A stretch of DNA of 64,000 bases, from the NCBI GenBank assembly GCA_949291455.1, contig CASEVQ010000001.1, forward strand, positions 1,703 to 65,702, given 5' to 3'. Source of the DNA: an uncultured bacterium. GTDB lineage: Bacteria > Bacillota_I > Bacilli_A > RF39 > UBA660. A program made the position numbers and the translations under genes. Below the pieces are notes generated by a model, which made no database searches, was not told where the DNA came from, and saw only the letters and a list, made by a program, of their open reading frames with translations. Positions 1-17,910 of this stretch are shown one piece after another (position 1 is the stretch's first letter; every line of letters begins with the position of its first letter).

Positions 1-282
1 ATAATTAAAAACTTTACAAAAGCAATTCAAAAAGGGCTAGATTTTGTACATGAAAATGAAAGTAGTGTAATTGCTGAATCAATATTAGAATTTTTCCCCG
101 ATACTTCACTAAATGACTTAACACAAGTAATAGAAAGATATAAAAAACAAGATAGTTGGCCACAAACAACAGAATTTACTGAAGAATCATTTATGCATTT
201 ACAAGAAATAATGATAAGTGCTGGGGAACTAAAAGAAAAAGTACCATATGAAGATTTAATGTATAAGGTAATAGATGAATAA
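1..282 (+). CDS. ABC transporter substrate-binding protein, C-terminal end (5' part upstream of window)
   Basis: Frame 1 is open from the window edge to TAA 280-282 (...KKQDSWPQTTEFTEESFMHLQEIMISAGELKEKVPYEDLMYKVIDE*). The stop overlaps ATG 275 of the next gene. Product is inferred only from SBP-ATPase-permease operon context. Confidence 0.4.
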   Translation: MIKNFTKAIQKGLDFVHENESSVIAESILEFFPDTSLNDLTQVIERYKKQDSWPQTTEFTEESFMHLQEIMISAGELKEKVPYEDLMYKVIDE

Positions 283-690
283 TATCCTAAAAATTAAAAA
301 CTTACAAAAAATATATCATGATTTAAACGGAGAAATTGAAGCAATAAAAGATATTACACTAGATATAAATCAAAATGAATTAATATCAATTGTAGGACCA
401 TCTGGTTGTGGAAAATCTTCTCTGCTGTCAATACTAGCAAATATTGAAAAAAAAAGCTCTGGAGAAATAATATTTAATAATCCTAACACAAAAATTGGTT
501 ACATGTTACAAAAAGACTCGCTCTTTCCTTGGAGAACGATACTAGAAAATTGTCTAATTGGACTAGAAACAGAAAATAAATTAACAGAAGAAAATAAAAA
601 AAAGGTTATTAACCTTCTAAAAAAATATGGATTATATGATTTTATTAATAAATATCCAGCATCATTATCTGGTGGAATGAGACAAAGAGT
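275..690 (+). pseudogene. ABC transporter ATP-binding protein (SsuB/TauB-like), fragment 1 of 3
   Basis: Walker A GPSGCGKSS, Q-loop MLQKDSLFPW and signature LSGGMRQRV are present. After codon 139 the frame runs into foreign sequence (LRILYTHK*). The protein continues at 4325. Confidence 0.9.
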
Positions 691-700
691 TCTACGAATA
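691..700. repeat. Element 1 left terminal inverted repeat (P' arm of attL), TCTACGAATA
   Basis: Exact reverse complement of 4313-4322, immediately after core GT 689-690. Confidence 0.85.
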
Positions 701-769
701 CTATATACACACAAATAATTACTTACAAGTGGCTTATAACCCTTATAAATAAAGGAAAAGAGGTATATT

Positions 770-1168
770 ATGTTATTAGATAAAAATTCAAAAAAAGTTA
801 TAGACTTAATTCAAAAATATGATAATTTAAGTGATATAGATAAAATTAGATTAGCAATTTATTTGTTAGAAAATAAAAATTTTAATGTAGATTTTAATGT
901 AAGAGATATGATTATTTTATTAAAGCAAGTTTTAAGAGTATTAGATTCTAATTATACAAAAGTAATAACTAATTTTAGTAAATATAAACATTTATTATTC
1001 TTTTCAGCCAAGTATTTAGAACTTACTGAAAAAGAAAAAAAGCATTTCTCTCTTGAAATGATATTTAATATATATGAAAATGATTTTAAAGATAAAATTA
1101 TTAATGAAGAAATTAATAAACATTCATTAGTTTATGATTATTGTTATTCACTAATTAATAATGAATAG
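770..1168 (+). CDS. hypothetical protein (element 1 cargo)
   Basis: 132-codon ORF with RBS AAAGGAAAAGAGG upstream and a hairpin terminator directly downstream. No motif recognised. Confidence 0.6.
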   Translation: MLLDKNSKKVIDLIQKYDNLSDIDKIRLAIYLLENKNFNVDFNVRDMIILLKQVLRVLDSNYTKVITNFSKYKHLLFFSAKYLELTEKEKKHFSLEMIFNIYENDFKDKIINEEINKHSLVYDYCYSLINNE

Positions 1169-1177
1169 AAAAAATAC

Positions 1178-1209
1178 CTAGTAGGCATTTGCTTACTAGA
1201 TATTTTTTT
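1178..1209 (+). terminator. rho-independent terminator
   Basis: 9-bp stem CTAGTAGGC/GCTTACTAG (one G-U pair) with a 4-nt loop, followed by ATATTTTTTT. Confidence 0.7.
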
Positions 1210-1377
1210 GTTTTGGTGTTCTTTTTAACACTAACGTACCCAAATTTTATTGAAAATATAAAGAAATAAAAATGAAAGTGAGGATTGATATTATGAATAA
1301 AACAAAGTACAAAAACAATAAACATTACTGCTATATTAGTTTAAAATCACACTTTAAATAATATATTTAAATTAGAG

Positions 1378-1518
1378 GTGAGCTTTATAAATATAGTCTA
1401 TAATGTTAAAGAAGTAGTAGAAAAAACTATAACCGATAACGATTTAAAAGAGATCATAAATAAAAAGTTATTAAATATTATATTATTTATGGAAACTTGC
1501 ACAAATGAGTGTAATTAG
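1378..1518 (+). CDS. small conserved protein upstream of the recombinase (candidate directionality/regulatory factor)
   Basis: Not in the ORF track. A GTG-initiated 46-codon ORF, VSFINIVYNVKEVVEKTITDNDLKEIINKKLLNIILFMETCTNECN. It is clearly homologous to the 47-codon ORF at 15530-15673, which occupies the same position upstream of the related recombinase. Start codon is uncertain (GTG with a poor RBS). Confidence 0.5.
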   Translation: MSFINIVYNVKEVVEKTITDNDLKEIINKKLLNIILFMETCTNECN

Positions 1519-1589
1519 ATGGTATAATTGTATTGGTTATAAGTTTAACTTGATAAGTAATTATTGCCTTAAGTTAGGAGGTAATAGTT

Positions 1590-3203
1590 ATGAATGAAAT
1601 GGAGAGTGTTAGAGAGAAGATATTATTAAGAGTTGTTATTTATTTAAGATTATCAAATGAAGATAAAGATAAAATTAATAAAAATGATGATAGTGAATCT
1701 ATTAAAAATCAAAGAAATATGTTGCTAGATTATATCGAGAAAAATCCACAATTTATGTTGGTTGATGAATATTGTGATGAAGATTTATCAGGTGCTGGTA
1801 CTTATAGACCTGAATTTGAAAGATTAATTAGAGATTGTGAAAATGGTAAAATTGATGTAGTTTTATGTAAAAGTCAATCTAGATTTTCAAGAGATATGGA
1901 AATCGTTGAAAAGTATATCAACAATAAATTCAAAGAATGGAATATAAGATTTATCGGCTTATCTGATAATGCAGATACTGATAATAGTGGTAATAAAAAA
2001 TCAAGACAGATAAATGGTTTAGTTAATGAATGGTATTTAGAAGATGTTTCAGACAATATCAGAAGTGCTTTTAATTCTAAAATGAAGCAAGGAGAATTCA
2101 TTTCTCCTTTCGCCTCATTTGGTTATGAAGTATCTAAAGAAGATAATAATAAGTTAGTTATTGATCCTATTGCTAGTGAAGTTGTTAAAGAAATATATGA
2201 TTTATATTTAAAAGGTATGGGGTTTACAGGAATAGCTCATTACTTAAATGATAAAAATATTCCTTGCCCCTCTTTTTATAAATATAAAAAAGGTATTAAA
2301 TTAAATGTCATTAGTAATAGACCTAGAGAAGAAATAAAATGGAATACTAATGCTATTAAAACAATATTAAAAAATGAATTATATTTAGGGCATTTAATTC
2401 AAGGAAAAAGAACTACTGTTAGTTATAAAAATCATAAAGTAATTAATAAACCTGAAGATGAATGGATTCGTAGAGAAAATATGCACGAAGCTATAATTGA
2501 TGAAGAAACATTTGCAAAAGTTCAAATTGCTTTGAAAGAAAGAACAAAACCTATGAAATCAACAGGAGTTGTTCATAACTTCTCTGGCAAAGTATTTTGT
2601 AAAGAATGTGATCGATATATGAGAAAGAAAAATTCTTCTAAACATGAATATCTAGTATGTTCTAATAATAGAGATGGTTATAATGATTGTATAAATAAAT
2701 CAGCGATTAGGTATGATGCTTTAGAAGAATTAGTATTAAGCCATATTAATAAAAAAGTTAAAAAGTTTTACGATTTAAATATTTTAGAAACAGAATCTTT
2801 AAAAAAAGAAAATAATAAGTTCACTAAAAAAATCAATTTATTAACGAAACAAAAAGAAACTATAGTTAATCAAATGGCAAAGACTAAAAATTATTTAAAA
2901 AGTCTTTATGAAGATAAAGTTAATGGAATAATTAATGCAGAACAATTTAAAGAATTAATTACTAATTATAATAATGATGATGAAAAGTTAAAAGACCAAT
3001 TAAAATCTATTGATAATGAGATTAACTATTATACACTAAAAGAATCTTCAAACAAAAATACAAAAGAATTATTTAATAAATATCAACAATTAGAAAAATT
3101 GAACAGAGTTATAGTAGATGAATTTGTAGATAAAATCTATATTGGTAAGATTAATGATGAAACAAATACAAGAGATATTGAAATCAAATGGAATTTTGAT
3201 TAA
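1590..3203 (+). CDS. large serine recombinase (element 1)
   Basis: Resolvase-type N-terminal domain (YLRLSNEDKD...DDSESIKNQ, LCKSQSRFSRDME, NKKSRQINGLVNEWYLED). Also a recombinase domain, a Cys-rich zinc-ribbon region (CKECDRYM...LVCSNN...C) and a coiled-coil tail. RBS is TTAGGAGG. Paralogous to 13858-15462. Confidence 0.92.
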   Translation: MNEMESVREKILLRVVIYLRLSNEDKDKINKNDDSESIKNQRNMLLDYIEKNPQFMLVDEYCDEDLSGAGTYRPEFERLIRDCENGKIDVVLCKSQSRFSRDMEIVEKYINNKFKEWNIRFIGLSDNADTDNSGNKKSRQINGLVNEWYLEDVSDNIRSAFNSKMKQGEFISPFASFGYEVSKEDNNKLVIDPIASEVVKEIYDLYLKGMGFTGIAHYLNDKNIPCPSFYKYKKGIKLNVISNRPREEIKWNTNAIKTILKNELYLGHLIQGKRTTVSYKNHKVINKPEDEWIRRENMHEAIIDEETFAKVQIALKERTKPMKSTGVVHNFSGKVFCKECDRYMRKKNSSKHEYLVCSNNRDGYNDCINKSAIRYDALEELVLSHINKKVKKFYDLNILETESLKKENNKFTKKINLLTKQKETIVNQMAKTKNYLKSLYEDKVNGIINAEQFKELITNYNNDDEKLKDQLKSIDNEINYYTLKESSNKNTKELFNKYQQLEKLNRVIVDEFVDKIYIGKINDETNTRDIEIKWNFD

Positions 3204-3326
3204 CAAATTTCAAAATAAAAAAGGAAATTCAAAACTTTTGTAGAATAATATAAGTGAGAGGTTATACACTTCTATAACCTTTTACTTAATATATATTAAA
3301 AATAAATAGTAAAGGACGGTGAATAA

Positions 3327-4187
3327 ATGAAAGAAAATAAATCAGAAACAATTTCAAACTTATTTGAAAATACTACTATTAGAAGTATATGGGATGCAGA
3401 AAAAGAAGAATATTATTTTAGTGTAATTGATGTTATTGGAGCATTAACTGATAATGATTATCAAAAATCAAGAAATTATTGGAAATGGCTTAAAAATAAA
3501 TTAAATAATGAAGGAAGTGAGTTGGTTAGCAATACTAACCAACTGAAAATGAAATCGGCTGATGGCAAATACTATAATACTGATACATTAGATACAAAAG
3601 GAATATTTAGACTTATTGAATCTGTACCTAGTCCAAAAGCTGAACCTATGAAAATGTGGTTAGCGAATCTTGGTAGTGAAAGAATTGATGAAGTATTTGA
3701 CCCAGAGATTGCTGGCAATAGAATTATTAACTATTATCGTAATAAAGGTTATAGTGATGAATGGATTAAAAAAAGATTAACTGGAATGGTTGATAGATTT
3801 CAACTAACTGATATATGGAAAGATGGTGGCATTGAAAAACCTATAGAATATGCAATGCTTACTAACGAAATATATAAAGGTTGGTCAGGAATGAAAGCAA
3901 GTGAATATAAAGTATATAAAGGTATTAGAAAAGAATCTTTAAGAGATAATATGACTGATATAGAAGTTCTACTTACTGATTTAGGAGAAATTGCTACTCG
4001 TGATATAGCAAAATCAGAACATCCACAAGGATTTAAAGAAAATATGAAAGTTGCTCGTATAGGTGGACAAGTTGCTAATGATGCTAGAAAGTCTTACGAA
4101 AAAGCAACTAAAAAATCAGCTATATCAAATCAAAATGCTTTAAACTATCAATACATAGATGACAAAAAACAAATAGAAAATAAATAA
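3327..4187 (+). CDS. Bro-N domain / DinD-like (DNA-damage-inducible protein D family) protein
   Basis: N-terminus FENTTIRSIWDAEKEEYYFSVIDVIGALT fits the Bro-N pattern. The remainder resembles DinD-type proteins by eye. RBS is AAGGACGG. Confidence 0.6.
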   Translation: MKENKSETISNLFENTTIRSIWDAEKEEYYFSVIDVIGALTDNDYQKSRNYWKWLKNKLNNEGSELVSNTNQLKMKSADGKYYNTDTLDTKGIFRLIESVPSPKAEPMKMWLANLGSERIDEVFDPEIAGNRIINYYRNKGYSDEWIKKRLTGMVDRFQLTDIWKDGGIEKPIEYAMLTNEIYKGWSGMKASEYKVYKGIRKESLRDNMTDIEVLLTDLGEIATRDIAKSEHPQGFKENMKVARIGGQVANDARKSYEKATKKSAISNQNALNYQYIDDKKQIENK

Positions 4188-4312
4188 CTCTGTTCCCGAC
4201 AATTTGTCGGAAAGTAATAATAAATCTTTAAAATACAAGTTAAACATAAAAAAAGAAATTTTAAAAAAGCCTTATTTTTCAAGGTTTTGATAAGGTATTA
4301 GTGTCCACATTA

Positions 4313-4322
4313 TATTCGTAGA
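4313..4322. repeat. Element 1 right terminal inverted repeat (P arm of attR), TATTCGTAGA
   Basis: Exact reverse complement of 691-700, immediately before core GT 4323-4324. Confidence 0.85.
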
Positions 4323-4324
4323 GT

Positions 4325-4486
4325 TGCTTTAATCAGAACACTAGCAACAGATCCAGACATTTTATTATTAGATGAACCACTATCAGCACTAGATTATCAA
4401 ACAAGACTTGCACTGTCTGATGACTTATATAAAATAATAAAAAATGAAGGAAAAACTGCTATTATGGTAACACATGACTTAGGTGA
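4325..4486 (+). pseudogene. ABC transporter ATP-binding protein, fragment 2 of 3
   Basis: Encodes ALIRTLATDPDILLLDEPLSALDYQTRLALSDDLYKIIKNEGKTAIMVTHDLG (Walker B, D-loop, H-loop). The frame then runs into foreign sequence (ELEF*). Confidence 0.9.
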
Positions 4487-4498
4487 ACTTGAGTTCTA
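4487..4498. repeat. Element 2 left terminal inverted repeat, ACTTGAGTTCTA
   Basis: Exact reverse complement of 10210-10221. Confidence 0.85.
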
Positions 4499-4508
4499 AA
4501 AAGAGAAA

Positions 4509-5768
4509 TTATTTATTAACAACAATCCAAGCATTAGGAAGCCATCTATAAGTTGGAACATAACCATTCCAAGGAGAATTGATATATTCATGATTAACAG
4601 TCATAGCAGTTGATGTTCCACCATCTAAATTTGCAGCATTAACTGCACCATACAGCTCCATTATGTGCGCCATATCAGCATAACTTGCGCCTTTAGAATG
4701 ACTTTGTAATCCATCAATTACCAACATTAAAACAATTCCATCCGCCCTTTGCCCAATAGCTGTTCGCCCACAAGTCCAAGTATAATAATTAACATTTTTA
4801 TAATAATTAACACCATTTACAATTAAAAATGGTCCCCATTCAACAGCATCCCTTATTCCTAATGAATATGCTTCATCAACTGTCATCTTTTTTAAAATAA
4901 GTTTATCATTCTTATCAAAACCAATAATCCCACCACCAGCATCACCACTAGCATAATTAGAATCAAGTATACCATCAATAAATACAGGACCATGTGGAAT
5001 ACCACCATTACTATTCCAATTTGGATCATAAAATCCTCCAGCATTCATTGCTATAAGAGCATTATTTTCCCTAGAAATTACTGACAATGTTTCACCATAA
5101 GAAGTATCTGAAGTACCTGCACCACTACTTTTAGCAATTTTAACTAAAGAAGGATCGTATATAACAGCCATATACCCTTCGTAGTGATAATCAGCACCAA
5201 TAGTAGTACCAGAAATCTTAATAATTTTATAAATATCATCTTCATTATGATTAAGAATTTCCTCTTCATATTTATTAGCATATACTTCTAAGTTACTATC
5301 TACCATAGAAAAATCTATTTCGTCATCACTTAAATCGACATACTCATTATCGACTACATCACTAATTGTCTCATCATCATAAATCATTGTTGCAACATAC
5401 TTATAATTTAATGAACCAATACTAGAATTTATAAGCCAATCTTTAAAATCATTATTATAATAAACTAAATTAACAACACCAAAAATTTCTAATATATATG
5501 CAAATAATACTAAAACAAAACCTATCTTTTTTTGCAAATTACAAAAATTAAAAATTCTTTTATTTCTTAACAAAAAAATACAATTTATAATTAAACAAAC
5601 AATTAAAATTACAAGTAAAGACAAAATAGCTATTTTAAAATCATCATTAACCTTTGTTTTATTATTAATAACAATAATTTGAATTGCAACAAAAAAAGGA
5701 ATAGCAAATAAACAAAATATTGCAAAAAACTTACATACACTAACTTTTTGGTTCTTTACATATTTCAC
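4509..5768 (-). CDS. membrane-anchored phosphodiester glycosidase family protein (NAGPA/DUF2233-like)
   Basis: N-terminal TM helices are followed by AMNAGGFYDPNW..GGIPHGPVFIDG and AANLDGGTSTAM, blocks typical of this family. Confidence 0.65.
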   Translation of the reverse strand: MKYVKNQKVSVCKFFAIFCLFAIPFFVAIQIIVINNKTKVNDDFKIAILSLLVILIVCLIINCIFLLRNKRIFNFCNLQKKIGFVLVLFAYILEIFGVVNLVYYNNDFKDWLINSSIGSLNYKYVATMIYDDETISDVVDNEYVDLSDDEIDFSMVDSNLEVYANKYEEEILNHNEDDIYKIIKISGTTIGADYHYEGYMAVIYDPSLVKIAKSSGAGTSDTSYGETLSVISRENNALIAMNAGGFYDPNWNSNGGIPHGPVFIDGILDSNYASGDAGGGIIGFDKNDKLILKKMTVDEAYSLGIRDAVEWGPFLIVNGVNYYKNVNYYTWTCGRTAIGQRADGIVLMLVIDGLQSHSKGASYADMAHIMELYGAVNAANLDGGTSTAMTVNHEYINSPWNGYVPTYRWLPNAWIVVNK

Positions 5769-5781
5769 TTGCTACACCTCT

Positions 5782-6336
5782 TTACTTCAAATCATTATAA
5801 ATTAATTTTAATAACAAATTTATATCACCAATGTAAAAACTTAATTTAGTTTTACCATTTTCATAAGCATAACTATTATACTGTTTAACAAAATCATTAT
5901 ATTTATCCACTATAATTCTATAAGAATCAATCATTTTTAAATAATTACTAGAAAAAACTCTACATTTTTCATTTAATAAATTATTATCAAAATCATATTG
6001 ACAACTATTATACAAAACAATTATCTTAAAAGAATTATTATTTAACCTATCATGTATTTTTTCTATTGAAGATAAAATATTATTTTTTTCTATATCAAAA
6101 TCATCAAAATAAACATTAAAAGAATCACTAATTATAACCATATCATCTTTTAATTCATTTGCATTTATATTAAAAATATCATAATAATAATTTATATTAT
6201 TTTTAATATTATTACTTTTCTCAACATCAATAGAATAATCATTTATATAAGCTAAAACATGCTCTAAAGACATAACAAAAATTCCAATAAAAATAAGTGC
6301 AAAACCAATCTTTAGAAAAGAATTTTTGAACATCAA
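5782..6336 (-). CDS. hypothetical membrane-anchored protein
   Basis: 184-codon ORF with an N-terminal hydrophobic helix, tightly packed in the minus-strand array. Confidence 0.55.
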   Translation of the reverse strand: MMFKNSFLKIGFALIFIGIFVMSLEHVLAYINDYSIDVEKSNNIKNNINYYYDIFNINANELKDDMVIISDSFNVYFDDFDIEKNNILSSIEKIHDRLNNNSFKIIVLYNSCQYDFDNNLLNEKCRVFSSNYLKMIDSYRIIVDKYNDFVKQYNSYAYENGKTKLSFYIGDINLLLKLIYNDLK

Positions 6337-6392
6337 TCATCACCTATATTAAAATAATATAAGTTTTAAAATTTTTTGTAAATAATATAAAA

Positions 6393-8333
6393 CTATTTTT
6401 TTATCTTATTTACATTATTATACTTTTTATTTACAAATAAAACTAATGGTACACCTATAATAATAAGTAAAATCTTTGGAAGGTAATTTATATTATTATT
6501 AACGAATGTATTAGGTGGAAGAACAATATCATCATTTAATTCATAAAAAACTTCTATTACATTATCATCAGCATTGTTTGACACAACTAATGGATAATTA
6601 ATTACTTCTTTTAAAGAATAATTGTCAAATTTTTCAAACTTAATATTATCAATTCTTGTTCCAATAATTTGATCGGTTACTATAACTGTTTTACTGTTAT
6701 CAATCTTTCCATTAAAATAATATAATATTTTATAATAATTTGTTTCTTCTTTTAAATATAAAACTTTGATTACATTGTTTTCAACATCGATAGATATTTC
6801 ATTTGTAGATGCAATACCATCTTTATAACCATTTGGTTTATATAAACTTAACCAATTTTCTCCAAAATCATTAACAATATCTTCAGTAGTAACTAATGAT
6901 CCATACTCCCTAAAAACATCTTTAGTTTTTGCTACTAAATTAACGCGTGATATTTCATCCTTGTAATATTCTATATGATAAGAATAAATATTTTTCTCGT
7001 ATACAATATTTAAAACATTATTGTCTTTGTCTATAACAAAATCATTTAAAATAATATTTTCACTAGTATAACCAATAGGCAAATACTTATCTTTCTCTAC
7101 ATTTACTATTCCACCTAGTTCTAAATAATCACTAATAGTTCCAAGTAAATTTTCTTCTGAAATAGAATCTTTATAATAATTTATAGTATATGGATATTTC
7201 TCTTTTTCATAATAAACTTCTGAAGATGAAGACATTACAAGTTTTTGTTCCTGATTATCTTTGTCTTTATATTTTAATACAACTCCTTCATTTAAAATAT
7301 TATTAGTAGCATACCAGCCATTTTCCAAATTATCATTTAACCTTATCTTAAAATTAAAAGATTTTTTTTCATCACTTATTTCACCTAAAGAATAAGTAAC
7401 AACTTTATCATTGACAATTACTCCTTCTCCAGATACATAAGAAAAATCTTCGCCAATAGTATCAATTAATACTGCATCTTTCCCAGCAGAAATCTCTTTA
7501 ATGTCAGTTGCTAATTCTTTTAATACATCTTTAATACCATCAGTTGTAGCATCATAGTAATACTCTTTTCCACTAGCTATACTTTTTAAGATATTTTTTG
7601 CATCCTCACTAGTGTCATAACCAACAGTATATATCTTTATTCCAGCATTTTTAACTCTAGCTATTGACTGAAATAAAAGTTCAGTACTATTAGGTTCCCC
7701 ATCACTTATTATCAATATGTATTTTAAAGAATTATCTTCAACTGAATCTAAATTTTCTTTAGCAAGATCGACTGCTAAATGTAAATTTGTAGCGCCATAT
7801 GGATAATCAAAATCACTAGTATTAAATACTTGATTAGTCCATGAAATTTTGTTTAAAGCATTACTAGAAAAAGTAATTAAATTGATTTTACTAGTTGGAA
7901 TATTTTCTGTTATATCCTTAGAAAAACTTATAGCACCATTAACGGCATTCTCCCATTTATAATTATTAATAGAATCAGTAACCCTACAATATAAATTTTG
8001 ATTATTTATATTAGTAAACTTATTATAAAACAAATCGGAAGATGTTTTTGTTCCATTAGCACAAAGCATGCTACCTGATCTGTCAAAAATAACAGATACA
8101 TAAACATTTTTAGTTGAAGACTCTAGTGTACTTTCCCCTTCTATTACAAACTCTACATTATAAACAAAATCTTCCTCTGTTTTACTTACTTTTTTAGTTA
8201 CTACAATTTCATCATTACTAACACTAACTTCTTCATTCCTTATATCACCACTTTTATAATCTAACGCCAAAACAAAACTAGGTAAAAAAACATAAATAAA
8301 TAAAAAACTTAATAATATTTTTTTTATTTTCAA
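6393..8333 (-). CDS. cell-surface VWA-domain adhesin with three MucBP-like repeats and a non-canonical C-terminal anchor
   Basis: Signal peptide, MIDAS-type motif VIFDRSGSM, and three Y.I.YYKD-type repeats. The C-terminus reads ...VLPPNTFVNNNINYLPK, then a hydrophobic helix, then a basic tail. The stop overlaps the sortase start. Confidence 0.75.
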   Translation of the reverse strand: MKIKKILLSFLFIYVFLPSFVLALDYKSGDIRNEEVSVSNDEIVVTKKVSKTEEDFVYNVEFVIEGESTLESSTKNVYVSVIFDRSGSMLCANGTKTSSDLFYNKFTNINNQNLYCRVTDSINNYKWENAVNGAISFSKDITENIPTSKINLITFSSNALNKISWTNQVFNTSDFDYPYGATNLHLAVDLAKENLDSVEDNSLKYILIISDGEPNSTELLFQSIARVKNAGIKIYTVGYDTSEDAKNILKSIASGKEYYYDATTDGIKDVLKELATDIKEISAGKDAVLIDTIGEDFSYVSGEGVIVNDKVVTYSLGEISDEKKSFNFKIRLNDNLENGWYATNNILNEGVVLKYKDKDNQEQKLVMSSSSEVYYEKEKYPYTINYYKDSISEENLLGTISDYLELGGIVNVEKDKYLPIGYTSENIILNDFVIDKDNNVLNIVYEKNIYSYHIEYYKDEISRVNLVAKTKDVFREYGSLVTTEDIVNDFGENWLSLYKPNGYKDGIASTNEISIDVENNVIKVLYLKEETNYYKILYYFNGKIDNSKTVIVTDQIIGTRIDNIKFEKFDNYSLKEVINYPLVVSNNADDNVIEVFYELNDDIVLPPNTFVNNNINYLPKILLIIIGVPLVLFVNKKYNNVNKIKK

Positions 8334-9034
8334 TACAATTCCTCCTCTATTTTTTTAGCAATTATTAAAAGATAAGAATCATCTGGTTCATAATAACACG
8401 TTTGCATAATTAAAATTTCATCATCATAATCAAAAGTGCTTTGATACAAAGATGATTTATTTAACCAATCAATATGGTCATTCCATTCATCTTTAGTAAA
8501 AGCTAGCTTCATATGCTGAAAATCAGATACTGTAATTACTACATTTGATATTTCATAATAAGATATTTTATTATTACTTTCTAAAATAAGCTTTCTGTTA
8601 TCCAAGTTATTAAAAAAATCGAACTTTAGAAAATTTTCTAACTTTTTAAAATCTGTCGCGATATTCTTAGAATTATGTCCATAAATTAAAAGTTTTGTAT
8701 CAAGATCAATATTATTTCTGTAGTCTAGGAAAATAGAACCAACATTATCAAAGTTTTTATAAACATCATGATTTAAATAATATTCATTGTCTTCTGCCTG
8801 AACCAAAGGAACATCAATATCAATAGATTCTATATAAAGGCGTCCAACAATATCTTGATTATTAAATTTATTTCTTGCTACATTTACATATTCAGAATTT
8901 ACTTGACTACTAACAACTATATCTACTATTTCTTTGTAATTAATTTCTTTAAAATCAATTGGAAACTCAACATTTAAATTAAAAGGTAATAATAAGCTAA
9001 AAGCCAAAACGACAATTTTTCTAATAAACTCCAT
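8330..9034 (-). CDS. class B-like sortase
   Basis: Signal anchor, active-site His in LLIYGHNSKN and Cys in LIMQTCYY. There is no Arg downstream of the Cys. Confidence 0.75.
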   Translation of the reverse strand: MEFIRKIVVLAFSLLLPFNLNVEFPIDFKEINYKEIVDIVVSSQVNSEYVNVARNKFNNQDIVGRLYIESIDIDVPLVQAEDNEYYLNHDVYKNFDNVGSIFLDYRNNIDLDTKLLIYGHNSKNIATDFKKLENFLKFDFFNNLDNRKLILESNNKISYYEISNVVITVSDFQHMKLAFTKDEWNDHIDWLNKSSLYQSTFDYDDEILIMQTCYYEPDDSYLLIIAKKIEEELY

Positions 9035-9085
9035 ATCACCACCTCAATTTTAGTTTATTCCAATGATTTGTATAAATTTGTCTTT

Positions 9086-10183
9086 TTATGAATAAAATAA
9101 AATTTCTTTAATATTTTTATCCAAAACAATTAATTCTTTAATATTCTTAACAATACAAATAAATTTTTGACTATCCCTTTCATCAACATTTAACATACAT
9201 AATAACTTTTTCTTTAATATAATTTCACTTACACAATTAGATCTACAACAATTACAAAAATATTGAATATAAACTTTATTTTTATTATTTTTTGTTAGAT
9301 GACAAGTTTTCTTAATTTTCATTAAACTACCACATGTACATCTAACTTTAAAAATTCCTTTGCTTTTTCGATAATTTTTTATTTTTTTTTGTACAGATAA
9401 ATATTTATTAATATTAACAATAGGAATATGCCTCCCTTTAGTTTCAAAGTATCTATCACTATTTATTCCATAGCGAACATTACCAATATAATTAGGATTT
9501 AATAAAAGAAGCTTTATCGTCTTATAAGACCATTTACATTTATTTTTAGTCAAAATATTATCATTATTTAAAATATTGGCAATTTCCGTATATGAATACC
9601 CTTTTAAAAATAAATCAAAAACTTTATTAACAATTATTGATTCTTCTTTATTTACTTTTTGAATTTTTTTTCCTTTTTCTTTAATATAACCATAACTTAC
9701 ATTTTTTGATGCAATAGTATAGCCTTCTTTTACTTTCCTTTCTAATCCCAATTTGACTCTTTCAACAATGTTTTCCCGTTCAAATTCAGCAAAAATACCT
9801 ATTATTTTTATAAACATTCTCCCTGTAGATGTCTTAGTATCAATTGACTCGTTTAAAGAATTAAAACTACAATTATATTTATTAAAAATATCTATAAGAT
9901 CGATTAAATCTTTTGTTGATCTTGTTAACCTATCTATTTTATAAACTAAAACATTATTAACTTTATTTTCTTTTATATCATCAATTAATCGTCTTAATTC
10001 TTTACGATCAACAATATTTTTTCCACTTATACCTTCATCAATATAAACAGAAAAAACATTCCAATCCTTTATACTGGCATAAGATTTTAATTTTTCTTCT
10101 TGAGCTCTAATTGAATAACCATTATTTGCCTGTTCTTCAGTTGAAACTCTAATATAAATACCTGTGTTAATCATATTCATCAA
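9086..10183 (-). CDS. serine recombinase (element 2, 365 aa)
   Basis: GIYIRVSTEEQ catalytic Ser motif, VYKIDRLTRS, and GIFAEFERENIVERVK. Also a recombinase domain and a Cys-rich C-terminal region. The ATG is 38 bp from the crossover site. Confidence 0.9.
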   Translation of the reverse strand: MMNMINTGIYIRVSTEEQANNGYSIRAQEEKLKSYASIKDWNVFSVYIDEGISGKNIVDRKELRRLIDDIKENKVNNVLVYKIDRLTRSTKDLIDLIDIFNKYNCSFNSLNESIDTKTSTGRMFIKIIGIFAEFERENIVERVKLGLERKVKEGYTIASKNVSYGYIKEKGKKIQKVNKEESIIVNKVFDLFLKGYSYTEIANILNNDNILTKNKCKWSYKTIKLLLLNPNYIGNVRYGINSDRYFETKGRHIPIVNINKYLSVQKKIKNYRKSKGIFKVRCTCGSLMKIKKTCHLTKNNKNKVYIQYFCNCCRSNCVSEIILKKKLLCMLNVDERDSQKFICIVKNIKELIVLDKNIKEILFYS

Positions 10184-10209
10184 TAAATATTATTGTTTTT
10201 TTTGAAAAA

Positions 10210-10221
10210 TAGAACTCAAGT
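10210..10221. repeat. Element 2 right terminal inverted repeat, TAGAACTCAAGT
   Basis: Exact reverse complement of 4487-4498. Confidence 0.85.
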
Positions 10222-10223
10222 GA

Positions 10224-10398
10224 GGCTATAAGTCTATCAGATAGAATAATTGTTTTAACTAAAAGACCATCTACTATAAAAAGTATCTATACAATAAATT
10301 ATGAAAAAAGAGAAACACCAATAAAAAACAGAACAAAAAAAGAATTTAGCATATACTACGATAAAATATGGAGGGATTTAGATGTCCATATACAGTAA
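10224..10398 (+). pseudogene. ABC transporter ATP-binding protein, fragment 3 of 3
   Basis: Encodes (G)EAISLSDRIIVLTKRPSTIKSIYTINYEKRETPIKNRTKKEFSIYYDKIWRDLDVHIQ*. The stop at 10396-10398 overlaps the permease ATG, as in an intact operon. Confidence 0.85.
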
Positions 10399-11185
10399 AG
10401 AACATAAAGAATTTTTAAAAAAGAAAAAAAAAGAAAAGTATCTTGTAATACTATTTCAATTTTTAATACTTATAATATTTATTGCAACGTGGCAAATTCT
10501 TGCTAACTTAAAAATAATTAACACTTTTCTATTTTCATCACCAGAAAATATTATAAATACAACGATAAAACTATTTAAAGATAAACTATTAACACATATA
10601 GGAGTAACCTTTTATGAAACAATAATAAGTTTTCTTTTAGCATCAATATTAGGTTTAATAGTAGCTACTATATTATGGTGGAATAAAACTATTGCTAAAA
10701 TAGTTGATCCTTACTTAACTGTCATAAACTCTCTTCCAAAGGTTGCATTAGGTCCATTAATAATTATTTGGGTAGGAACAAGTACAAATTCAATTATCTT
10801 TATGGCTCTAATGATATCCTTGATAATAAGCATCATAAACATATATAATGCATTTATCTCAACAGAAAAAAACTATATAATATTATTAAAAAGTTTTAAT
10901 GCAACCAAATGGCAAATATTTTCTAAAGTAATTTTACCTAGTAATAAACAAAACATAATAAACGCATTTAAAATAAACATTAGTATGTCTTTAATCGGTG
11001 TAATAATGGGAGAATTATTAGTATCTAAGGAAGGCTTAGGATACTTAATAATGTATGGATCACAAGTATTTAATATTAATTTAGTAATTACGTCAGTTTT
11101 TATACTAGGAATAATTTCTTATATAATGTATTACATAATACATATTATTGAAAAGAAAGAAAAAATTAAAAAAGAAAAGTCCTGA
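10382..11185 (+). CDS. ABC transporter permease (NitT/TauT-type)
   Basis: 267-codon polytopic membrane ORF with a typical BPD-transport layout. Translationally coupled to the ATPase tail. Confidence 0.8.
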   Translation: MSIYSKEHKEFLKKKKKEKYLVILFQFLILIIFIATWQILANLKIINTFLFSSPENIINTTIKLFKDKLLTHIGVTFYETIISFLLASILGLIVATILWWNKTIAKIVDPYLTVINSLPKVALGPLIIIWVGTSTNSIIFMALMISLIISIINIYNAFISTEKNYIILLKSFNATKWQIFSKVILPSNKQNIINAFKINISMSLIGVIMGELLVSKEGLGYLIMYGSQVFNINLVITSVFILGIISYIMYYIIHIIEKKEKIKKEKS

Positions 11186-11203: not shown

Positions 11204-11749
11204 TTAAGCAATGGACTTTAAAGTTCCAATAATAACTAAATAATGATTTTTATTTAACAAATTACATGTAAACAAAGTTACGGTCGTATCATTTATATTG
11301 CGTTTAATTGAAATTCTCCCATCTTTATAATCATTATAAATATTAGAAACAACATATATATATTTCTTATCACAATACTCTAAAATTATTTCATCACCTA
11401 TTGATAAATGCACTAAATCATTAAAATAAGCTACTGAACCACTACCAGAATGCCCACCTAAAACAACATTACCATTATTTTCATTAGGCATATTAGAATA
11501 TTTCATTATTTGCACATTCATATCTATATTATTCTTAATACTATTTTTATCGTATATATCATTATGCAAATTAATTTTAGGAATTATTAAAGATATAATT
11601 GGTTTTTCTAATACTTTATTTCCATTATTAATAAATTCTATATCAGACATAGTACGTGAATTAGATAAATTTACAAATGATAAATTTATTATTAAATAAA
11701 AAACAAATAAAATGAATATTACTTTATTTACTATTGATAACATAAACAA
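11204..11749 (-). CDS. small sortase
   Basis: Signal anchor, His in VVLGGHSGSG and Cys in VTLFTCN. No Arg downstream of the Cys. Overlaps the end of the adhesin gene. Confidence 0.7.
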   Translation of the reverse strand: MFMLSIVNKVIFILFVFYLIINLSFVNLSNSRTMSDIEFINNGNKVLEKPIISLIIPKINLHNDIYDKNSIKNNIDMNVQIMKYSNMPNENNGNVVLGGHSGSGSVAYFNDLVHLSIGDEIILEYCDKKYIYVVSNIYNDYKDGRISIKRNINDTTVTLFTCNLLNKNHYLVIIGTLKSIA

Positions 11750-13205: not shown

Positions 13206-13258
13206 ATAATCTCCCTTACCATCACTAATAGTATTTTTATTCATATAATTTAAAAATC

Positions 13259-13804
13259 CTAAATATTATTAAAATATTCAATAACACCTTCTGTTATGCT
13301 AATTGCAAGAGTTTCCTGATAATTTTTATCTTGCAATAACTTTCTTTCTTGATAATTAGATAAAAAACCACATTCTATAAGTACTCCAGGAGTATTAATA
13401 TATTTATACATATAAAGATTTGTAGTTGTTATTTCTCTATTTGTCGAAGTGTTTTTTTTAAGACTTTCTTGAATGCTTGATGCTAAAGTTTCATTAAATT
13501 TATTACCTTCATAATATAAAACTTCTGCACCTTTATAATATGAATTTTTATACCAATTAACATGAATAGACAAATAAATATCAGTTTTTAAATAATTCTC
13601 ATCTATCATTTTAATTCTTCGATATAAATCTCCTCTTTTTTTATGTGCATCATAAACACTAGAATGGTCTATATCACTATCTCTAGTTAAAAATACAGTT
13701 GCTCCTTTCAAAGATAACTTTTCTTCTAATACTTTAGCAATTTCTAAATTAATGTCTTTCTCATAAATGTTTCCGTATACTACACCAGGATCACGTCCTC
13801 CATG
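13259..13804 (-). pseudogene. cwlD: N-acetylmuramoyl-L-alanine amidase CwlD-like, 3' fragment
   Basis: Encodes H|GGRDPGVVYGNIYEKDINLEIAKVLEEKLSLKGATVFLTRDSD...YLSIHVN...GVLIECGFLSN...YQETLAISITEGVIEYF, an Amidase_3/CwlD-like sequence. The N-terminal anchor and the DAGH motif are missing here and are found at 24643-24786. Confidence 0.85.
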
Positions 13805-13857
13805 GCTTGCACCTTTTAACCCCAGAAACCATATTCTTTTTTATTATAGGTTATATT

Positions 13858-15462: not shown

Positions 15463-15529
15463 TTACTACAACACCTCAATTCCGATTAGTTGTAGCAAAT
15501 ATAAATCTACAAAGAGATTATATAACATT

Positions 15530-15673
15530 TTAAGAATTATTTAAAGCTACGCTGTCCTCTTCTTCTGCTAATATAACTCGTAGTAATTTTTTTGCAATAA
15601 TATCTTTTAAATCAGTTTCTTCGATTACTTTATTATCTTTTGTTACATATATTACATTATAATTTACCTTCAT
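15530..15673 (-). CDS. small conserved protein upstream of the recombinase (candidate directionality/regulatory factor)
   Basis: Not in the ORF track. MKVNYNVIYVTKDNKVIEETDLKDIIAKKLLRVILAEEEDSVALNNS, with a strong RBS AGGGGGG 9 nt upstream. Homologous to 1378-1518. Confidence 0.65.
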   Translation of the reverse strand: MKVNYNVIYVTKDNKVIEETDLKDIIAKKLLRVILAEEEDSVALNNS

Positions 15674-15733
15674 TTTATCTATACCCCCCTTTGTTATTCT
15701 CTATAAAGAATATCCTCCTATTTTAATCATATA

Positions 15734-16231: not shown

Positions 16232-16536
16232 CCTTCAAATTATAGTTTCTGGTGTTTAAGGGTGCAATATGCCTATGAAGAAATAAGTTTCCATTGGTAA
16301 TAGTTTGAGCTATAACATACATATTTTTAACCCTTAATACTTAATTTGTTCTTTGAAATAAGTTATAGTTCAAACTTGTATTCATCTTATATTTCTATAA
16401 GATAGGTTCTGATATAAGCCTTAATATCTTATCGAGCCTCTTATAACTAGCGTTCATTGTTACTTTTCTAGTTAAGTGTTATTGTGTACATTCCGTTTGA
16501 GTATTCTTTATATATTAGATATATTAGATATTTTAA

Positions 16537-16734: not shown

Positions 16735-16841
16735 TCATAGGTTTCCTCCTTTCTGTTAATGTTCTTTGATGTAAAGCTCATCAAATTAAATATAGTCTAC
16801 CATCTTATTTTGAGCTTATCAACACTATAATTACAATTTCG

Positions 16842-16870: not shown

Positions 16871-16906
16871 TACATAAGTTGAAACGAAGAAAGGTGGTTA
16901 TGATTT

Positions 16907-17907: not shown

Positions 17908-17910
17908 AGA

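What the first reader, a model, noticed from the sequence alone, without database searches (positions are those of the whole stretch)
275..10398. One ABC-ATPase gene cut into three by two unrelated serine-recombinase elements; double in-silico excision restores a 250-codon ORF
The three pieces of the protein are:
- 275-690: the Walker A, Q-loop and signature part (...LSGGMRQRV). It leaves the ABC fold at 691.
- 4325-4486: ALIRTLATDPDILLLDEPLSALDYQTRLALSDDLYKIIKNEGKTAIMVTHDLG (Walker B and H-loop).
- 10224-10398: the tail EAISLSDRIIVLTKRPSTIK...WRDLDVHIQ*. It overlaps the permease ATG at 10382, exactly as in an intact operon.

The lengths 416+162+175 nt sum to 753 nt, which is 250 codons plus a stop, so both joins are in frame. 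Each gap has its own serine recombinase and its own inverted-repeat ends. Each has crossover dinucleotides in direct orientation, which predicts excision rather than inversion.

Two different elements in one 750-bp gene make transporter function depend on two independent excisions, effectively a genetic AND gate. Caveat: conservative site-specific recombination always restores the frame, so the in-frame joins validate my boundaries but do not show biological regulation.
Basis: seen in the sequence. Interest (0 to 1): 0.75.

Follow-up and report, generated by a model that had tools for sequence, protein, structure and literature searches.

The report
ABC transporter gene split by two recombinase elements
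One ABC-transporter ATPase gene of an uncultured gut bacterium really is cut into three by two separate mobile elements, each with its own serine recombinase; this is a known kind of gene interruption, and the unusual part is that the whole operon is a repeated target while its gene pieces stay intact.

Summary
Joining 275-690, 4325-4486 and 10224-10398 gives a 250-codon ABC ATPase that aligns colinearly with intact orthologues.

Both inserts are large-serine-recombinase (LSR) elements. Their rebuilt attP sites are perfect palindromes: 10-GT-10 for element 1 and 12-GA-12 for element 2.

The two elements have different histories:
- **Element 1 (691-4324)** is a recent, strain-specific arrival. 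Six same-species contigs carry the empty site. Its abundant recombinase family sits at the same ATPase codon 139 in three other species, with different cargo each time.
- **Element 2 (4487-10223)** is present in every sampled strain of the species. Relatives (LSR 55-65% identical) sit at the same codon 193 in four other lineages. The element has diverged along with its host.

The split ATPase is still under strong purifying selection (dN/dS about 0.08). Its 3' piece cannot be translated on its own, yet it stays stop-free and conserved.

The binding-protein and permease genes of the same operon are also cut by other LSR elements in many species.

The "AND gate" is therefore an incidental strain state, not a design. 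I found no direct evidence of excision.

Verdict: a new member of a known kind (gene-intervening LSR elements), with an unusual operon-wide pattern.

The parts
1..282 (+). 3' end of the substrate-binding-protein gene (NMT1/SsuA-like) of the operon. The window starts at about residue 239.
   Evidence: Frame-0 translation ends at ...KVIDE*. It is 76% identical to residues 239-326 of the L074 binding protein. L074's binding protein hits the SsuA_fam subfamily weakly.
275..690 (+). ATPase fragment A (codons 1-138 plus 2 nt): Walker A, Q-loop and signature LSGGMRQRV. The GT core of attL1 is at 689-690.
691..4324 (+). Element 1 (3634 bp), a strain-specific LSR element. Arms are at 691-700 and 4313-4322; the second GT core is at 4323-4324.
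   Evidence: It is absent, with a precise empty site, from L001-L006. The rebuilt attP is the palindrome TATTCGTAGA-GT-TCTACGAATA. Family members sit at the same ATPase codon in L099, L103 and L108.
770..1168 (+). Element 1 ORF, 132 aa, with no family hit. This left part of the element is not shared with relatives.
1378..1518 (+). Element 1 small ORF (46 aa), conserved immediately upstream of every Rec1-family recombinase. It is a candidate accessory or directionality factor (inferred).
   Evidence: 56-98% identity in L099-L111.
1590..3203 (+). Rec1: large serine recombinase, 537 aa (Resolvase, Recombinase, Zn ribbon, DUF4368).
   Evidence: It has 4993 homologues at E <= 1e-40, and the 98%-identity cluster has 592 members. 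The closest named relative is TndX at 31%.
3327..4187 (+). Element 1 cargo: Bro-N domain protein, 286 aa.
   Evidence: Pfam Bro-N E = 4.8e-9. 69% identical homologue in L099/L102.
4325..4486 (+). ATPase fragment B (codons 139-192 region): Walker B, D-loop and H-loop. The GA core of attL2 is at 4485-4486.
   Evidence: It is contiguous with fragment A in the 196-aa proteins P0008, P0039 and others.
4487..10223 (-). Element 2 (5737 bp), an LSR element fixed in the species. Arms are at 4487-4498 and 10210-10221; the second GA core is at 10222-10223.
   Evidence: About 94% identical over its whole length at the same site in L001 and L004. Relatives sit at the same codon in L074, L087, L090 and L092. 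The arms are conserved across species.
4509..5768 (-). Element 2 cargo: membrane-anchored phosphodiester glycosidase (NAGPA domain), 419 aa.
   Evidence: Pfam E = 3.6e-35. dN/dS 0.12-0.16. Homologues lie in the L090 and L092 elements.
5782..6336 (-). Element 2 ORF, 184 aa, unknown function.
   Evidence: No family hit. 35-37% identical homologues in the L090 and L092 elements. dN/dS about 0.5.
6393..8333 (-). Element 2 cargo: VWA-domain surface protein, 646 aa.
   Evidence: Pfam VWA E = 8.8e-12. dN/dS 0.17-0.18. 58% identical homologue in the L087 element.
8330..9034 (-). Element 2 cargo: class B sortase, 234 aa.
   Evidence: TIGR03064 E = 1.3e-30, below the curated cutoff. dN/dS about 0.17.
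9086..10183 (-). Rec2: short serine integrase, 365 aa (Resolvase + Recombinase + a Cys-rich end; no coiled-coil in the model).
   Evidence: AF2 model pLDDT 78.9 with no long helical hairpin. Foldseek matches serine integrases of 486-596 aa. dN/dS 0.15.
10224..10398 (+). ATPase fragment C (codons 193-250 plus stop). There is no in-frame start codon; an in-frame TAG lies inside the att arm, 3 codons upstream of codon 193.
   Evidence: Conserved and stop-free in all 7 interrupted loci.
10382..11185 (+). Permease gene (BPD_transp_1), 267 aa, intact in this window. It is cut at the position matching window 10998 in strains L001 and L004.

Best explanation
Two independent integrative elements, each moved by its own large serine recombinase, have inserted by conservative site-specific recombination into two conserved coding motifs of the ATPase gene. 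The gene belongs to a binding-protein/ATPase/permease ABC importer operon in an uncultured, low-GC gut Bacilli bacterium.

**Element 2** is an old resident.
- It sits after the H-loop, at THDLGE|AISLS.
- It is fixed in the species.
- Its family has apparently been inherited vertically through a clade of species.
- Its recombinase, att arms and surface-protein cargo are all kept intact.

**Element 1** is a recent horizontal arrival.
- It sits between the signature and Walker B, at RQRV|ALIRTL.
- It comes from a very abundant family related to Tn4451/Tn5397-type elements.
- Despite carrying DUF4368, the family is specific for this one codon.

**How it works.** Each recombinase can in principle recombine its attL and attR at the 2-bp core, release a circle and restore the reading frame exactly. 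This step is inferred from family knowledge; it is not shown here.

**Why excision must occur.** The ATPase pieces stay under strong purifying selection, including a 3' piece that cannot be translated on its own. The intact gene must therefore be re-formed often enough to be selected. The trigger, the cell type and the frequency are unknown.

**The double cut** in this strain is an accident of two independent site-specific elements sharing one small target gene. It is not an evolved two-input gate.
For: **Shown: anatomy and boundaries**
- Exact boundaries, cores and palindromic attP.
- LSR domain content.

**Shown: element 1**
- Natural empty attB1 in six same-species contigs.
- Rec1 relatives at 76-98% identity lie at ATPase codon 137-139 in three other species. 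Their cargo is Mob_Pre/DnaB-like, Fic, or a van-like cluster.
- Arm changes are matched on both arms: CTACGA becomes CTTTGA in L103.

**Shown: element 2**
- Present at the same site in all sampled strains, with dS 0.15-0.29, similar to the ATPase fragments it interrupts.
- Rec2 relatives at 55-65% identity lie at the same codon in L074, L087, L090 and L092, with conserved 12-nt arms.
- Cargo genes are shared in mosaic form at 35-62% identity.
- In a host-gene tree, all codon-193-interrupted taxa except L074 form one clade, with intact L095/L097 nested inside it.

**Shown: selection**
- ATPase codons 1-192, window versus L001/L004: 30-32 synonymous against 9-10 non-synonymous changes, dN/dS about 0.08, binomial p about 1e-13.
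- 3' fragment: pS 0.5-0.87 against pN 0.10-0.30, with no stop in 7 loci.
- The 3' fragment has no in-frame start codon in 6 of 7 loci.
- Rec2 dN/dS is 0.15.

**Inferred**
- That excision actually happens.
- The reversibility and directionality of the reaction.
Against: - There is no direct sign of excision.
  - No intact ATPase above 85% identity appears among 5.8 billion clustered proteins.
  - None of six rebuilt intact proteins exists in the 15-billion-protein collection.
  - No attP junction was found in IMG/VR or JGI contigs.
- In strain L004/L005 the attL2 arm carries two substitutions that are not matched in the attR arm. This could mean the site is decaying.
- No directionality factor was identified for either element.
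- Co-divergence of Rec2 with the host is only weakly supported (Spearman 0.35, not significant). Repeated independent insertion at a shared attB is therefore not excluded.
- Several elements in one operon (up to four in L001) would all need to excise to restore function. That is unlikely unless excision is efficient and coordinated.
Confidence: 0.6

Rival explanations
1. Programmed, developmentally timed rearrangement. All elements in the operon are excised efficiently in a terminal cell type, most plausibly the mother cell during sporulation. This is how skin/sigK, SPbeta/spsM and gin/gerE work in Bacillus, and how the nifD, fdxN and hupL elements work in heterocysts. The germ line keeps the interrupted copy while the terminal cell gets a working transporter.
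For: - The pattern matches those systems.
  - The element is fixed in the lineage.
  - The recombinase gene lies at the element's end.
  - The fragments are intact and under selection.
  - Several elements sit in one operon, as with nifD, which carries up to four (PMC4874684).
  - The smallest variant carries little more than the recombinase (L074), like gin (PMC5595907).
- Multiple simultaneous interruptions (L001) can only be compatible with function if excision is efficient and coordinated.
- RF39-type Bacilli are predicted to be able to sporulate (PMC10868615).
- The window carries a CwlD-like amidase and a weak GerS-like hit. The CwlD-like gene is itself split by a third LSR element.
Against: - An SsuA/NMT1-type ABC importer is not a known mother-cell-specific function.
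- No sporulation-type promoter or directionality factor was found. The simple promoter scan found nothing upstream of Rec2.
- Assigning this organism to RF39 rests on my memory of what the CAG:710, CAG:417 and CAG:776 relatives are. It was not verified.
- Element 1 and the CwlD element look like recent mobile arrivals rather than domesticated elements.
Confidence: 0.2
2. A dead or dispensable operon used as a neutral landing zone. The transporter is not needed in the gut. Element 2 killed the gene, and later elements piled into the wreck. Nothing ever excises, so the split is simple pseudogenisation.
For: - Many different LSR elements accumulate in the same 2.5-kb operon across species and strains.
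- No empty attB2 or circular junction was found anywhere.
- The attL2 arm carries unmatched substitutions in L004/L005.
Against: - dN/dS is about 0.08 on the split ATPase between strains that both carry element 2 (p about 1e-13).
- The untranslatable 3' fragment is stop-free and conserved at the amino-acid level across lineages with saturated synonymous divergence.
- Random 56-codon stretches at this base composition would be stop-free only about 0.65% of the time.
- The permease and binding-protein fragments are likewise intact.
- Each element family uses one exact codon. Insertions are not scattered as neutral pile-up would predict.
Confidence: 0.1
3. A reversible population-level switch, like active lysogeny or phase variation. 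In growing cells the elements excise and re-integrate at low frequency. A minority of cells therefore has a working transporter when it pays, much as the comK prophage of Listeria or the hlb prophage of S. aureus behave.
For: - Serine integrases favour re-integration, so an excised circle can return.
- Rec2 lacks the coiled-coil that enforces directionality in other LSRs. It might therefore run both ways without a helper (inference).
- Intact L095/L097 nested within the interrupted clade fits an occasional heritable, precise loss.
- Precedents: PMC7397523 and PMC6597384.
Against: - With two to four independent elements in one operon, chance simultaneous excision would be vanishingly rare (inference).
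- The elements have no replication or phage genes to survive as circles.
- No minority junctions are visible in assemblies, although assemblies are insensitive to minority states.
Confidence: 0.1

Closest known systems
Gene-intervening elements of spore formers: skin/SpoIVCA in sigK, SPbeta/SprA in spsM, gin/GirC in gerE (PMC4191935, PMC5025042, PMC5595907, PMC5499854)
   Same: - An LSR-bearing element sits inside a coding sequence and precise excision rebuilds the ORF.
- The element is kept in the lineage and the gene pieces stay intact.
- Element size ranges from near-minimal (the L074 variant, about 1.9 kb) to cargo-rich.
   Different: - The target here is an ABC importer ATPase, not a known mother-cell sporulation gene.
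- No developmental timing or directionality factor has been shown.
- The host is an uncultured gut Bacilli bacterium.
- Two elements lie in one 750-bp gene, and other elements lie in the neighbouring genes of the same operon.
Heterocyst interruption elements of cyanobacteria: nifD/XisA, fdxN/XisF, hupL/XisC; survey in PMC4874684
   Same: - Several independent elements, each with its own recombinase, lie in one gene or operon (nifD carries up to four).
- One insertion position is conserved per element variant.
- Element content varies.
- XisF is the best NCBIfam hit for Rec1, although far below its cutoff.
   Different: - Different phylum and different target function.
- No known terminal cell type is tied to this operon.
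- The best-known nifD and hupL elements use tyrosine recombinases (my recollection, not checked here).
Site-specific LSR integrative elements that target conserved coding sites (Durrant et al. 2022, PMC10083194)
   Same: - Diverse LSR clusters hit one conserved site inside a gene and carry variable cargo.
- The att sites have a 2-bp core.
- Here, both attB sites lie in conserved ABC motifs.
   Different: - That survey reports DUF4368 recombinases as mostly multi-targeting. Here the DUF4368-bearing Rec1 family was at the same codon in 4 of 4 contexts examined.
- ABC transporter genes are not mentioned there as a target.
Tn4451/Tn5397-type elements (TnpX, TndX)
   Same: - Rec1 carries DUF4368, and its closest named relative is TndX (31% identity).
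- A 98%-identical relative lies in a larger element with a Mob_Pre relaxase (L099), like the mobilisable Tn4451.
   Different: - The core is GT, not GA.
- The family is site-specific rather than loosely targeted.
- The window copy has no mobilisation gene.
Active lysogeny / phage regulatory switches (Listeria comK prophage, S. aureus hlb prophage; PMC7397523, PMC6597384)
   Same: A mobile element inside a host gene whose excision turns the gene back on in growing cells.
   Different: - Neither element here is a prophage: there are no structural, lysis or replication genes.
- No excision has been observed.

Membership tests
Large serine recombinase (serine integrase) elements | N-terminal resolvase-type catalytic domain with the serine nucleophile | tested here: met
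   PF00239: Rec1 E = 7e-23, Rec2 E = 8e-43. Motifs YLRLS (Rec1) and YIRVS (Rec2) are visible in the sequences. S14 is invariant in 39 Rec2 homologues.
Large serine recombinase (serine integrase) elements | Recombinase domain followed by a zinc-ribbon domain with an embedded coiled-coil | tested here: inconclusive
   The Recombinase domain (PF07508) is present in both. Zn_ribbon_recom hits Rec1 only. Rec2 has four invariant Cys (C282, C284, C310, C313). Its AF2 model shows no long helical hairpin, and the protein is about 120-230 aa shorter than the solved integrases it matches.
Large serine recombinase (serine integrase) elements | attL/attR share a 2-bp non-palindromic core flanked by inverted-repeat arms, with no target duplication and exact restoration on excision | tested here: met
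   Cores are GT and GA. The rebuilt attP sites are 10-GT-10 and 12-GA-12. An empty attB1 exists in relatives. The joins are in frame.
Developmentally excised gene-intervening elements (skin, SPbeta, gin, heterocyst elements) | The element interrupts a CDS, the pieces remain functional-looking, and the element is retained vertically | tested here: met
   This holds for element 2 only. Element 1 is a recent strain-specific gain.
Developmentally excised gene-intervening elements (skin, SPbeta, gin, heterocyst elements) | Excision occurs in a terminally differentiated cell and is needed for that cell's function | not testable with these tools
   This needs cultures, or time-resolved DNA or RNA. 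Only indirect hints exist: a CwlD-like and a GerS-like gene, and the RF39 sporulation prediction.
Developmentally excised gene-intervening elements (skin, SPbeta, gin, heterocyst elements) | A cognate recombination directionality factor is encoded in or near the element | tested here: inconclusive
   No family hit identifies one. The candidates are the conserved 46-aa ORF upstream of Rec1 and the 184-aa ORF of element 2.
Tn4451/Tn5397 (TnpX/TndX) transposon family | DUF4368-type LSR plus mobilisation or conjugation functions, GA-flanked ends, and many target sites | tested here: not met
   DUF4368 is present. However, the window copy has no Mob gene, the core is GT, and all four contexts examined use the same ATPase codon.
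Prophage / active-lysogeny switch | Phage structural, lysis and replication modules | tested here: not met
   Only a Bro-N protein in element 1. Element 2 carries surface-protein and sortase cargo.
NitT/TauT-type ABC importer (SsuA/NMT1 binding protein, ATPase, permease) | Full set of ATPase motifs in the rebuilt protein, and operon order binding protein - ATPase - permease | tested here: met
   ABC_tran E = 8e-32. The best NCBIfam models are PhnT2, SaoA and ntrCD-like, all below their cutoffs, so the substrate is unknown. No riboswitch lies upstream in relatives.

The most novel reading that the evidence does not exclude
In a clade of uncultured gut Bacilli, one ABC importer operon is a conserved multi-site landing pad. 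It has at least six distinct attB positions spread across its three genes. Serine-recombinase elements stay resident there over speciation-scale time while every gene piece remains under purifying selection. This would imply programmed, coordinated multi-element excision that rebuilds a nutrient transporter, perhaps during sporulation or under a specific nutritional cue. It would be a Firmicute counterpart of the multiply interrupted nifD of heterocystous cyanobacteria, but in a gene with no known developmental role and driven partly by unusually short integrases that lack the coiled-coil.
Probability: 0.25. Interest if true: 0.75.

Novelty: new member of a known kind. Interest (0 to 1): 0.5.

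Why it matters
**If the elements only integrate**, this is one more example of serine integrases using conserved coding motifs as attachment sites. It would still supply:
- two well-defined attB/attP pairs with natural empty sites;
- a DUF4368 integrase family that is site-specific rather than promiscuous;
- a family of short integrases (312-378 aa) without the directionality-controlling coiled-coil.

All three are of practical interest for integrase engineering.

**If the purifying selection means what it seems to mean**, a nutrient transporter in abundant, uncultured gut bacteria is switched on by DNA rearrangement. Several independent elements would have to leave together. That would extend programmed gene reconstitution beyond sporulation and nitrogen-fixation genes. 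It is directly testable with junction reads in existing metagenomes.

**Cargo.** One element-1 relative carries a van-like resistance cluster, so this attachment site is also a route for cargo spread in gut Bacilli.

Tried and rejected
**Searches for free or excised forms: nothing usable**
- The attP2 (degenerate) and attP1 patterns gave 0 hits in IMG/VR.
- attP2 gave 0 hits in JGI metagenome contigs.
- A looser attP1 pattern gave 120 hits. None has a recombinase nearby, so I treat them as chance matches.

**Search for assembled intact alleles of the interrupted lineages: none**
- Six rebuilt proteins are absent from the 15-billion-protein collection.
- No intact homologue exceeds 85% identity.

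**Split-protein idea: rejected**
- I considered whether the 3' fragment is made as a separate peptide.
- There is no in-frame start codon in 6 of 7 loci, and a TAG lies inside the conserved arm.

**Substrate clues: no result**
- No riboswitch lies upstream of the operon in six relatives or in the window.
- The NCBIfam hits are all below their cutoffs.

**Promoter scan upstream of Rec2:** no call at the expected place.

**Compensatory change in the element 2 arms within the species:** not seen. L004's attL changes are unmatched in attR. Across species there is only one matched position, in L090.

**Co-divergence of Rec2 with host genes:** the rank order is compatible with co-divergence but is not statistically significant.

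**Secondary attB-like sites in the window:** none within 3 mismatches.

**Generic inverted-repeat search:** uninformative in this AT-rich DNA (492 pairs). The terminal repeats are significant because of their position at the junctions, not their length.

**Literature check that the CAG:710-type relatives belong to RF39:** no paper found. That assignment rests on my own memory.

Full report

Yes, exactly as described.

- Joining window 275-690, 4325-4486 and 10224-10398 gives 753 nt. This translates to a 250-aa protein without internal stops.
- The protein carries a full ABC_tran domain (E = 8e-32). It resembles NitT/TauT-type importer ATPases, but all NCBIfam hits fall below their curated cutoffs, so the substrate is unknown.
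- The first ORF reads through RQRV into LRILYTHK*.
- The ATPase stop overlaps the permease ATG at 10382, as in intact operons.
- Each gap holds one serine recombinase.
  - Rec1, 1590-3203 (+), 537 aa: Resolvase, Recombinase, Zn ribbon, DUF4368.
  - Rec2, 9086-10183 (-), 365 aa: Resolvase, Recombinase.
  - They are only 28% identical over 259 aa.
- The ends are textbook serine-integrase sites.
  - Element 1 has a GT core at 689-690 and 4323-4324. Its arms rebuild the perfect palindrome TATTCGTAGA-GT-TCTACGAATA.
  - Element 2 has a GA core at 4485-4486 and 10222-10223, and rebuilds TAGAACTCAAGT-GA-ACTTGAGTTCTA.

**2. Independent confirmation from other genomes**

The rebuilt protein finds thousands of intact 248-252-aa orthologues that read colinearly across both joins.

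It also finds a set of 196-aa proteins that are 94-100% identical over residues 1-192. They end ...THDLGELEF* or ...GDLKF*.

- These come from six contigs of the same species, 93-99% nucleotide identity, from ENA, Logan and NCBI GCA_949292255.1.
- In all six, window 691 joins directly to 4320 across the shared AGAGTT. This is a natural empty attB1.
- All six then run into element 2 at the same base. Where the contigs are long enough (L001, L004), the whole of element 2 is present at about 94% identity.

So element 1 is a recent gain of this strain, and element 2 is fixed in the species.

The organism is an uncultured, 26% GC gut Bacilli or "Tenericutes"-type bacterium. Its relatives are named Clostridium sp. 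CAG:710 and CAG:417 and Mycoplasma sp. CAG:776. From memory these are GTDB order RF39; I could not verify this here.

**3. Element 2 is an old resident at one codon**

Rec2 homologues of 55-65% identity are short integrases of 312-378 aa. In every case examined they lie between the permease gene and a truncated ATPase gene of the same operon: L074, L087-89, L090-91 and L092-94.

- **Same cut.** The cut is at the same codon (THDL[G/A]E | A[I/V]S) in all five lineages.
- **Conserved arms.** The 12-nt arms on both sides of the GA core are conserved in four of the five lineages and weaker in L074, while the neighbouring element DNA is not conserved. In L090 one arm position has changed on both arms.
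- **Mosaic cargo.** NAGPA, sortase B, the VWA protein and the 184-aa ORF are shared in mosaic form at 35-62% identity. L074 keeps little beyond the recombinase. This fits one ancestral element losing different genes in different lineages.
- **Host tree.** In a neighbour-joining tree of ATPase plus permease, all the codon-193-interrupted taxa except L074 form one clade. The intact L095/L097 pair is nested inside it. That means either one ancient insertion followed by one precise loss, or three separate gains.
- **Limits.** The tree has no support values. The correlation between Rec2 distances and host distances is weak. I therefore call vertical descent likely, not proven.

**4. Element 1 belongs to a very abundant, site-specific family**

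Rec1 has 4993 homologues at E <= 1e-40, and the 98%-identity cluster alone has 592 member sequences.

Three further contexts were examined:

| Loci | Rec1 identity | Cargo |
|---|---|---|
| L099-102 | 98% | HTH, DnaB-like, Mob_Pre relaxase, Bro-N |
| L103-107 | 76% | Fic/RhuM |
| L108-111 | 78% | VanY, D-Ala-D-Ala ligase family, VanW, two-component system |

- All three sit at ATPase codon 137-139 of the same kind of operon, in three other species.
- In L103 both arms have changed together, from CTACGA to CTTTGA.
- These hosts are scattered over the host tree, so the family moves horizontally.
- Durrant et al. report that DUF4368 integrases are mostly multi-targeting (PMC10083194). This family was at one codon in 4 of 4 contexts.
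- attB1 lies in the highly conserved LSGGMRQRVALIRTL coding stretch. It is nearly identical in many species with intact genes, so targets are plentiful.

**5. The whole operon is a repeated target**

A systematic tblastn of the three operon proteins against all fetched loci shows several classes of interruption.

- **Binding-protein gene.** It is cut at about residues 70, 95, 147 and 192-210 in different species.
- **Permease gene.** It is cut at about residue 206-209 in 13 of 80 species representatives. A roughly 435-480-aa LSR gene lies immediately downstream of the cut in most of them.
- **ATPase gene.** It is cut at codons 139 and 193.
- **Overall.** At least 20 of 80 GTDB species representatives carry at least one interruption.

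Individual strains differ:

- Strain L001 has the binding-protein gene cut at about residue 200 and truncated at about residue 94, the ATPase cut once and the permease cut once.
- The strain closest to the window (L006, 98.7% identical) has its binding-protein gene cut by an LSR element with a GH3 gene. The window begins downstream of that site, so its own state is unknown.
- The closest species with an intact ATPase (P0001/P0003) carry that binding-protein element instead.

**6. Are the gene pieces decaying?**

No.

- **5' part, within the species.** Between the window and L001/L004, which both carry element 2, ATPase codons 1-192 show 30-32 synonymous and 9-10 non-synonymous differences. That gives dN/dS of about 0.08 and a binomial p of about 1e-13 against neutrality.
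- **Element divergence.** Element 2's own genes have diverged to a similar degree (dS 0.15-0.29). They are also under purifying selection: Rec2 0.15, sortase 0.17, VWA 0.18, NAGPA 0.12-0.16.
- **3' fragment, across lineages.** The 56-codon 3' fragment has near-saturated synonymous divergence (pS 0.5-0.87) but pN of only 0.10-0.30. There is no stop codon in any of the seven loci.
- **No independent translation.** This fragment has no in-frame start codon in six of seven loci. The conserved att arm itself contains an in-frame TAG three codons upstream of codon 193. It cannot be made as a separate peptide.

The simplest reading is that the intact gene is re-formed often enough to be seen by selection.

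**7. What I could not show**

There is no direct evidence for excision.

- No intact allele above 85% identity exists among 5.8 billion clustered proteins.
- None of six rebuilt intact proteins is present in the 15-billion-protein collection.
- No circular junction was found in IMG/VR or JGI contigs.
- Assemblies report majority states, so this does not exclude minority excision.
- The attL2 arm of L004/L005 has two substitutions not matched in attR.
- No directionality factor was identified. Candidates are the 46-aa ORF conserved upstream of every Rec1-family gene and the 184-aa ORF of element 2.
- Rec2's model (pLDDT 78.9) has the catalytic, recombinase and a small Cys4 domain but no coiled-coil hairpin. 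It matches solved integrases that are 120-230 aa longer. In well-studied integrases the coiled-coil enforces directionality (established knowledge of phiC31, Bxb1 and LI integrases). Rec2 may therefore run in both directions unaided. This is inference only.

**8. Mechanism and rivals**

*Best explanation (confidence about 0.6).* Two independent, site-specific LSR elements occupy two conserved motifs of one small gene.

- One is old and retained; the other is new.
- Both remain competent for precise excision.
- The gene is kept alive by selection, so excision must matter biologically.
- The trigger is unknown.

*Programmed excision in a terminal cell such as the sporulation mother cell (about 0.2).*
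- For: it best explains how strains with three or four interruptions in one operon could still use it.
- For: RF39 is predicted to sporulate (PMC10868615), and the window has CwlD-like and GerS-like genes.
- Against: an ABC importer is not a known mother-cell function, and no regulatory evidence was found.

*A dead operon serving as a neutral landing zone (about 0.1).* This is contradicted by the selection data and by the one-codon-per-family pattern.

*A stochastic vegetative switch (about 0.1).* This is hard to reconcile with multiple simultaneous interruptions.

It is an accident of two independent insertions rather than an evolved device, and the real number of inputs may be three.

**9. 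Comparison with what is known, and novelty**

- Gene-intervening LSR elements are well known in spore formers: skin, SPbeta and gin (PMC4191935, PMC5025042, PMC5595907).
- Cyanobacteria also carry them. There, 10 of 87 interrupted genes hold several elements, and one nifD holds four (PMC4874684).
- LSRs commonly target conserved coding sites (PMC10083194).

The finding is therefore a new member of a known kind. Four things are not, to my knowledge, described:

- this target operon;
- the density of distinct sites in it;
- the speciation-scale retention with selection on all pieces, in a gene with no developmental role;
- the short coiled-coil-less integrase family.

Interest is moderate (0.5). 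It would rise to about 0.75 if coordinated excision were demonstrated.

Noticed in passing
window 13265-24765 (element about 13805-24642): A third LSR element of about 10.8 kb splits a CwlD-like spore-cortex amidase gene at DAGH|GGRD (core CA). Residues 44-223 lie at 13804-13265 and residues 3-44 at 24765-24640.

The element carries:
- an LSR of 534 aa at 13858-15462 (-), with DUF4368, 44% identical to Rec1;
- two HTH proteins;
- a 1647-aa HD-domain protein;
- a Mob_Pre fragment at 23747-24280.

The intact orthologue (L087) sits next to rpsI/rplM. Its best hit is TIGR02883 CwlD at 180 bits, below the cutoff of 221.
   Followed up: partly
L001, L004, L006, L007-L086, L087-L098 (relatives of window 1-11185): The binding-protein and permease genes of the same operon are also cut by other LSR elements at fixed positions.
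- Binding protein: about residues 70, 95, 147 and 192-210.
- Permease: about residue 206-209.
- At least 20 of 80 species representatives carry at least one cut.
- The permease element is polymorphic within one species: L088 has it, while L087 and L089 do not.
   Followed up: partly
L108-L111 (NCBI GCA_948755625.1, CAQAQY010000002.1): An element 1 relative (recombinase 78% identical), at the same ATPase codon, carries a vancomycin-resistance-like cluster: VanY, a D-Ala-D-Ala ligase family protein, VanW, and a histidine kinase with a response regulator.
   Followed up: no
window 9086-10183; alignment A1: Rec2 belongs to a large family of short serine integrases (312-378 aa, over 1700 homologues at E <= 1e-30). 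They have four invariant cysteines but no coiled-coil in the predicted structure.
   Followed up: partly
window 1378-1518: A 46-aa ORF lies directly upstream of Rec1. It is conserved (56-98% identity) upstream of every Rec1-family recombinase examined. It may be an accessory or directionality factor.
   Followed up: partly
window 11204-13244: A sortase and a TED/SpaA-type pilin gene lie next to the permease. They look like cargo, but they are conserved chromosomal neighbours in related species (L087, L090, L092, L095). They are not part of a mobile element.
   Followed up: yes
L013 2095-3890; L028 6890-8134: Homologues of the element 2 cargo genes lie beside the operon in two species whose ATPase gene is intact. 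NAGPA is 50-54% identical; the 184-aa ORF is 27% identical and was found in L013 only. The origin of the cargo is therefore unclear: it could be a former chromosomal neighbour or an element at another site.
   Followed up: no
window 49845-50846: A weak match to the germination lipoprotein GerS (E = 3.5e-11, 43 bits, cutoff 175). Together with the CwlD-like gene, this hints that the organism may form spores.
   Followed up: no
L001 11893-14263: Strain L001 has an extra insertion of about 2.4 kb inside element 2. It includes a 478-aa ORF and a duplicated NAGPA 5' segment.
   Followed up: no
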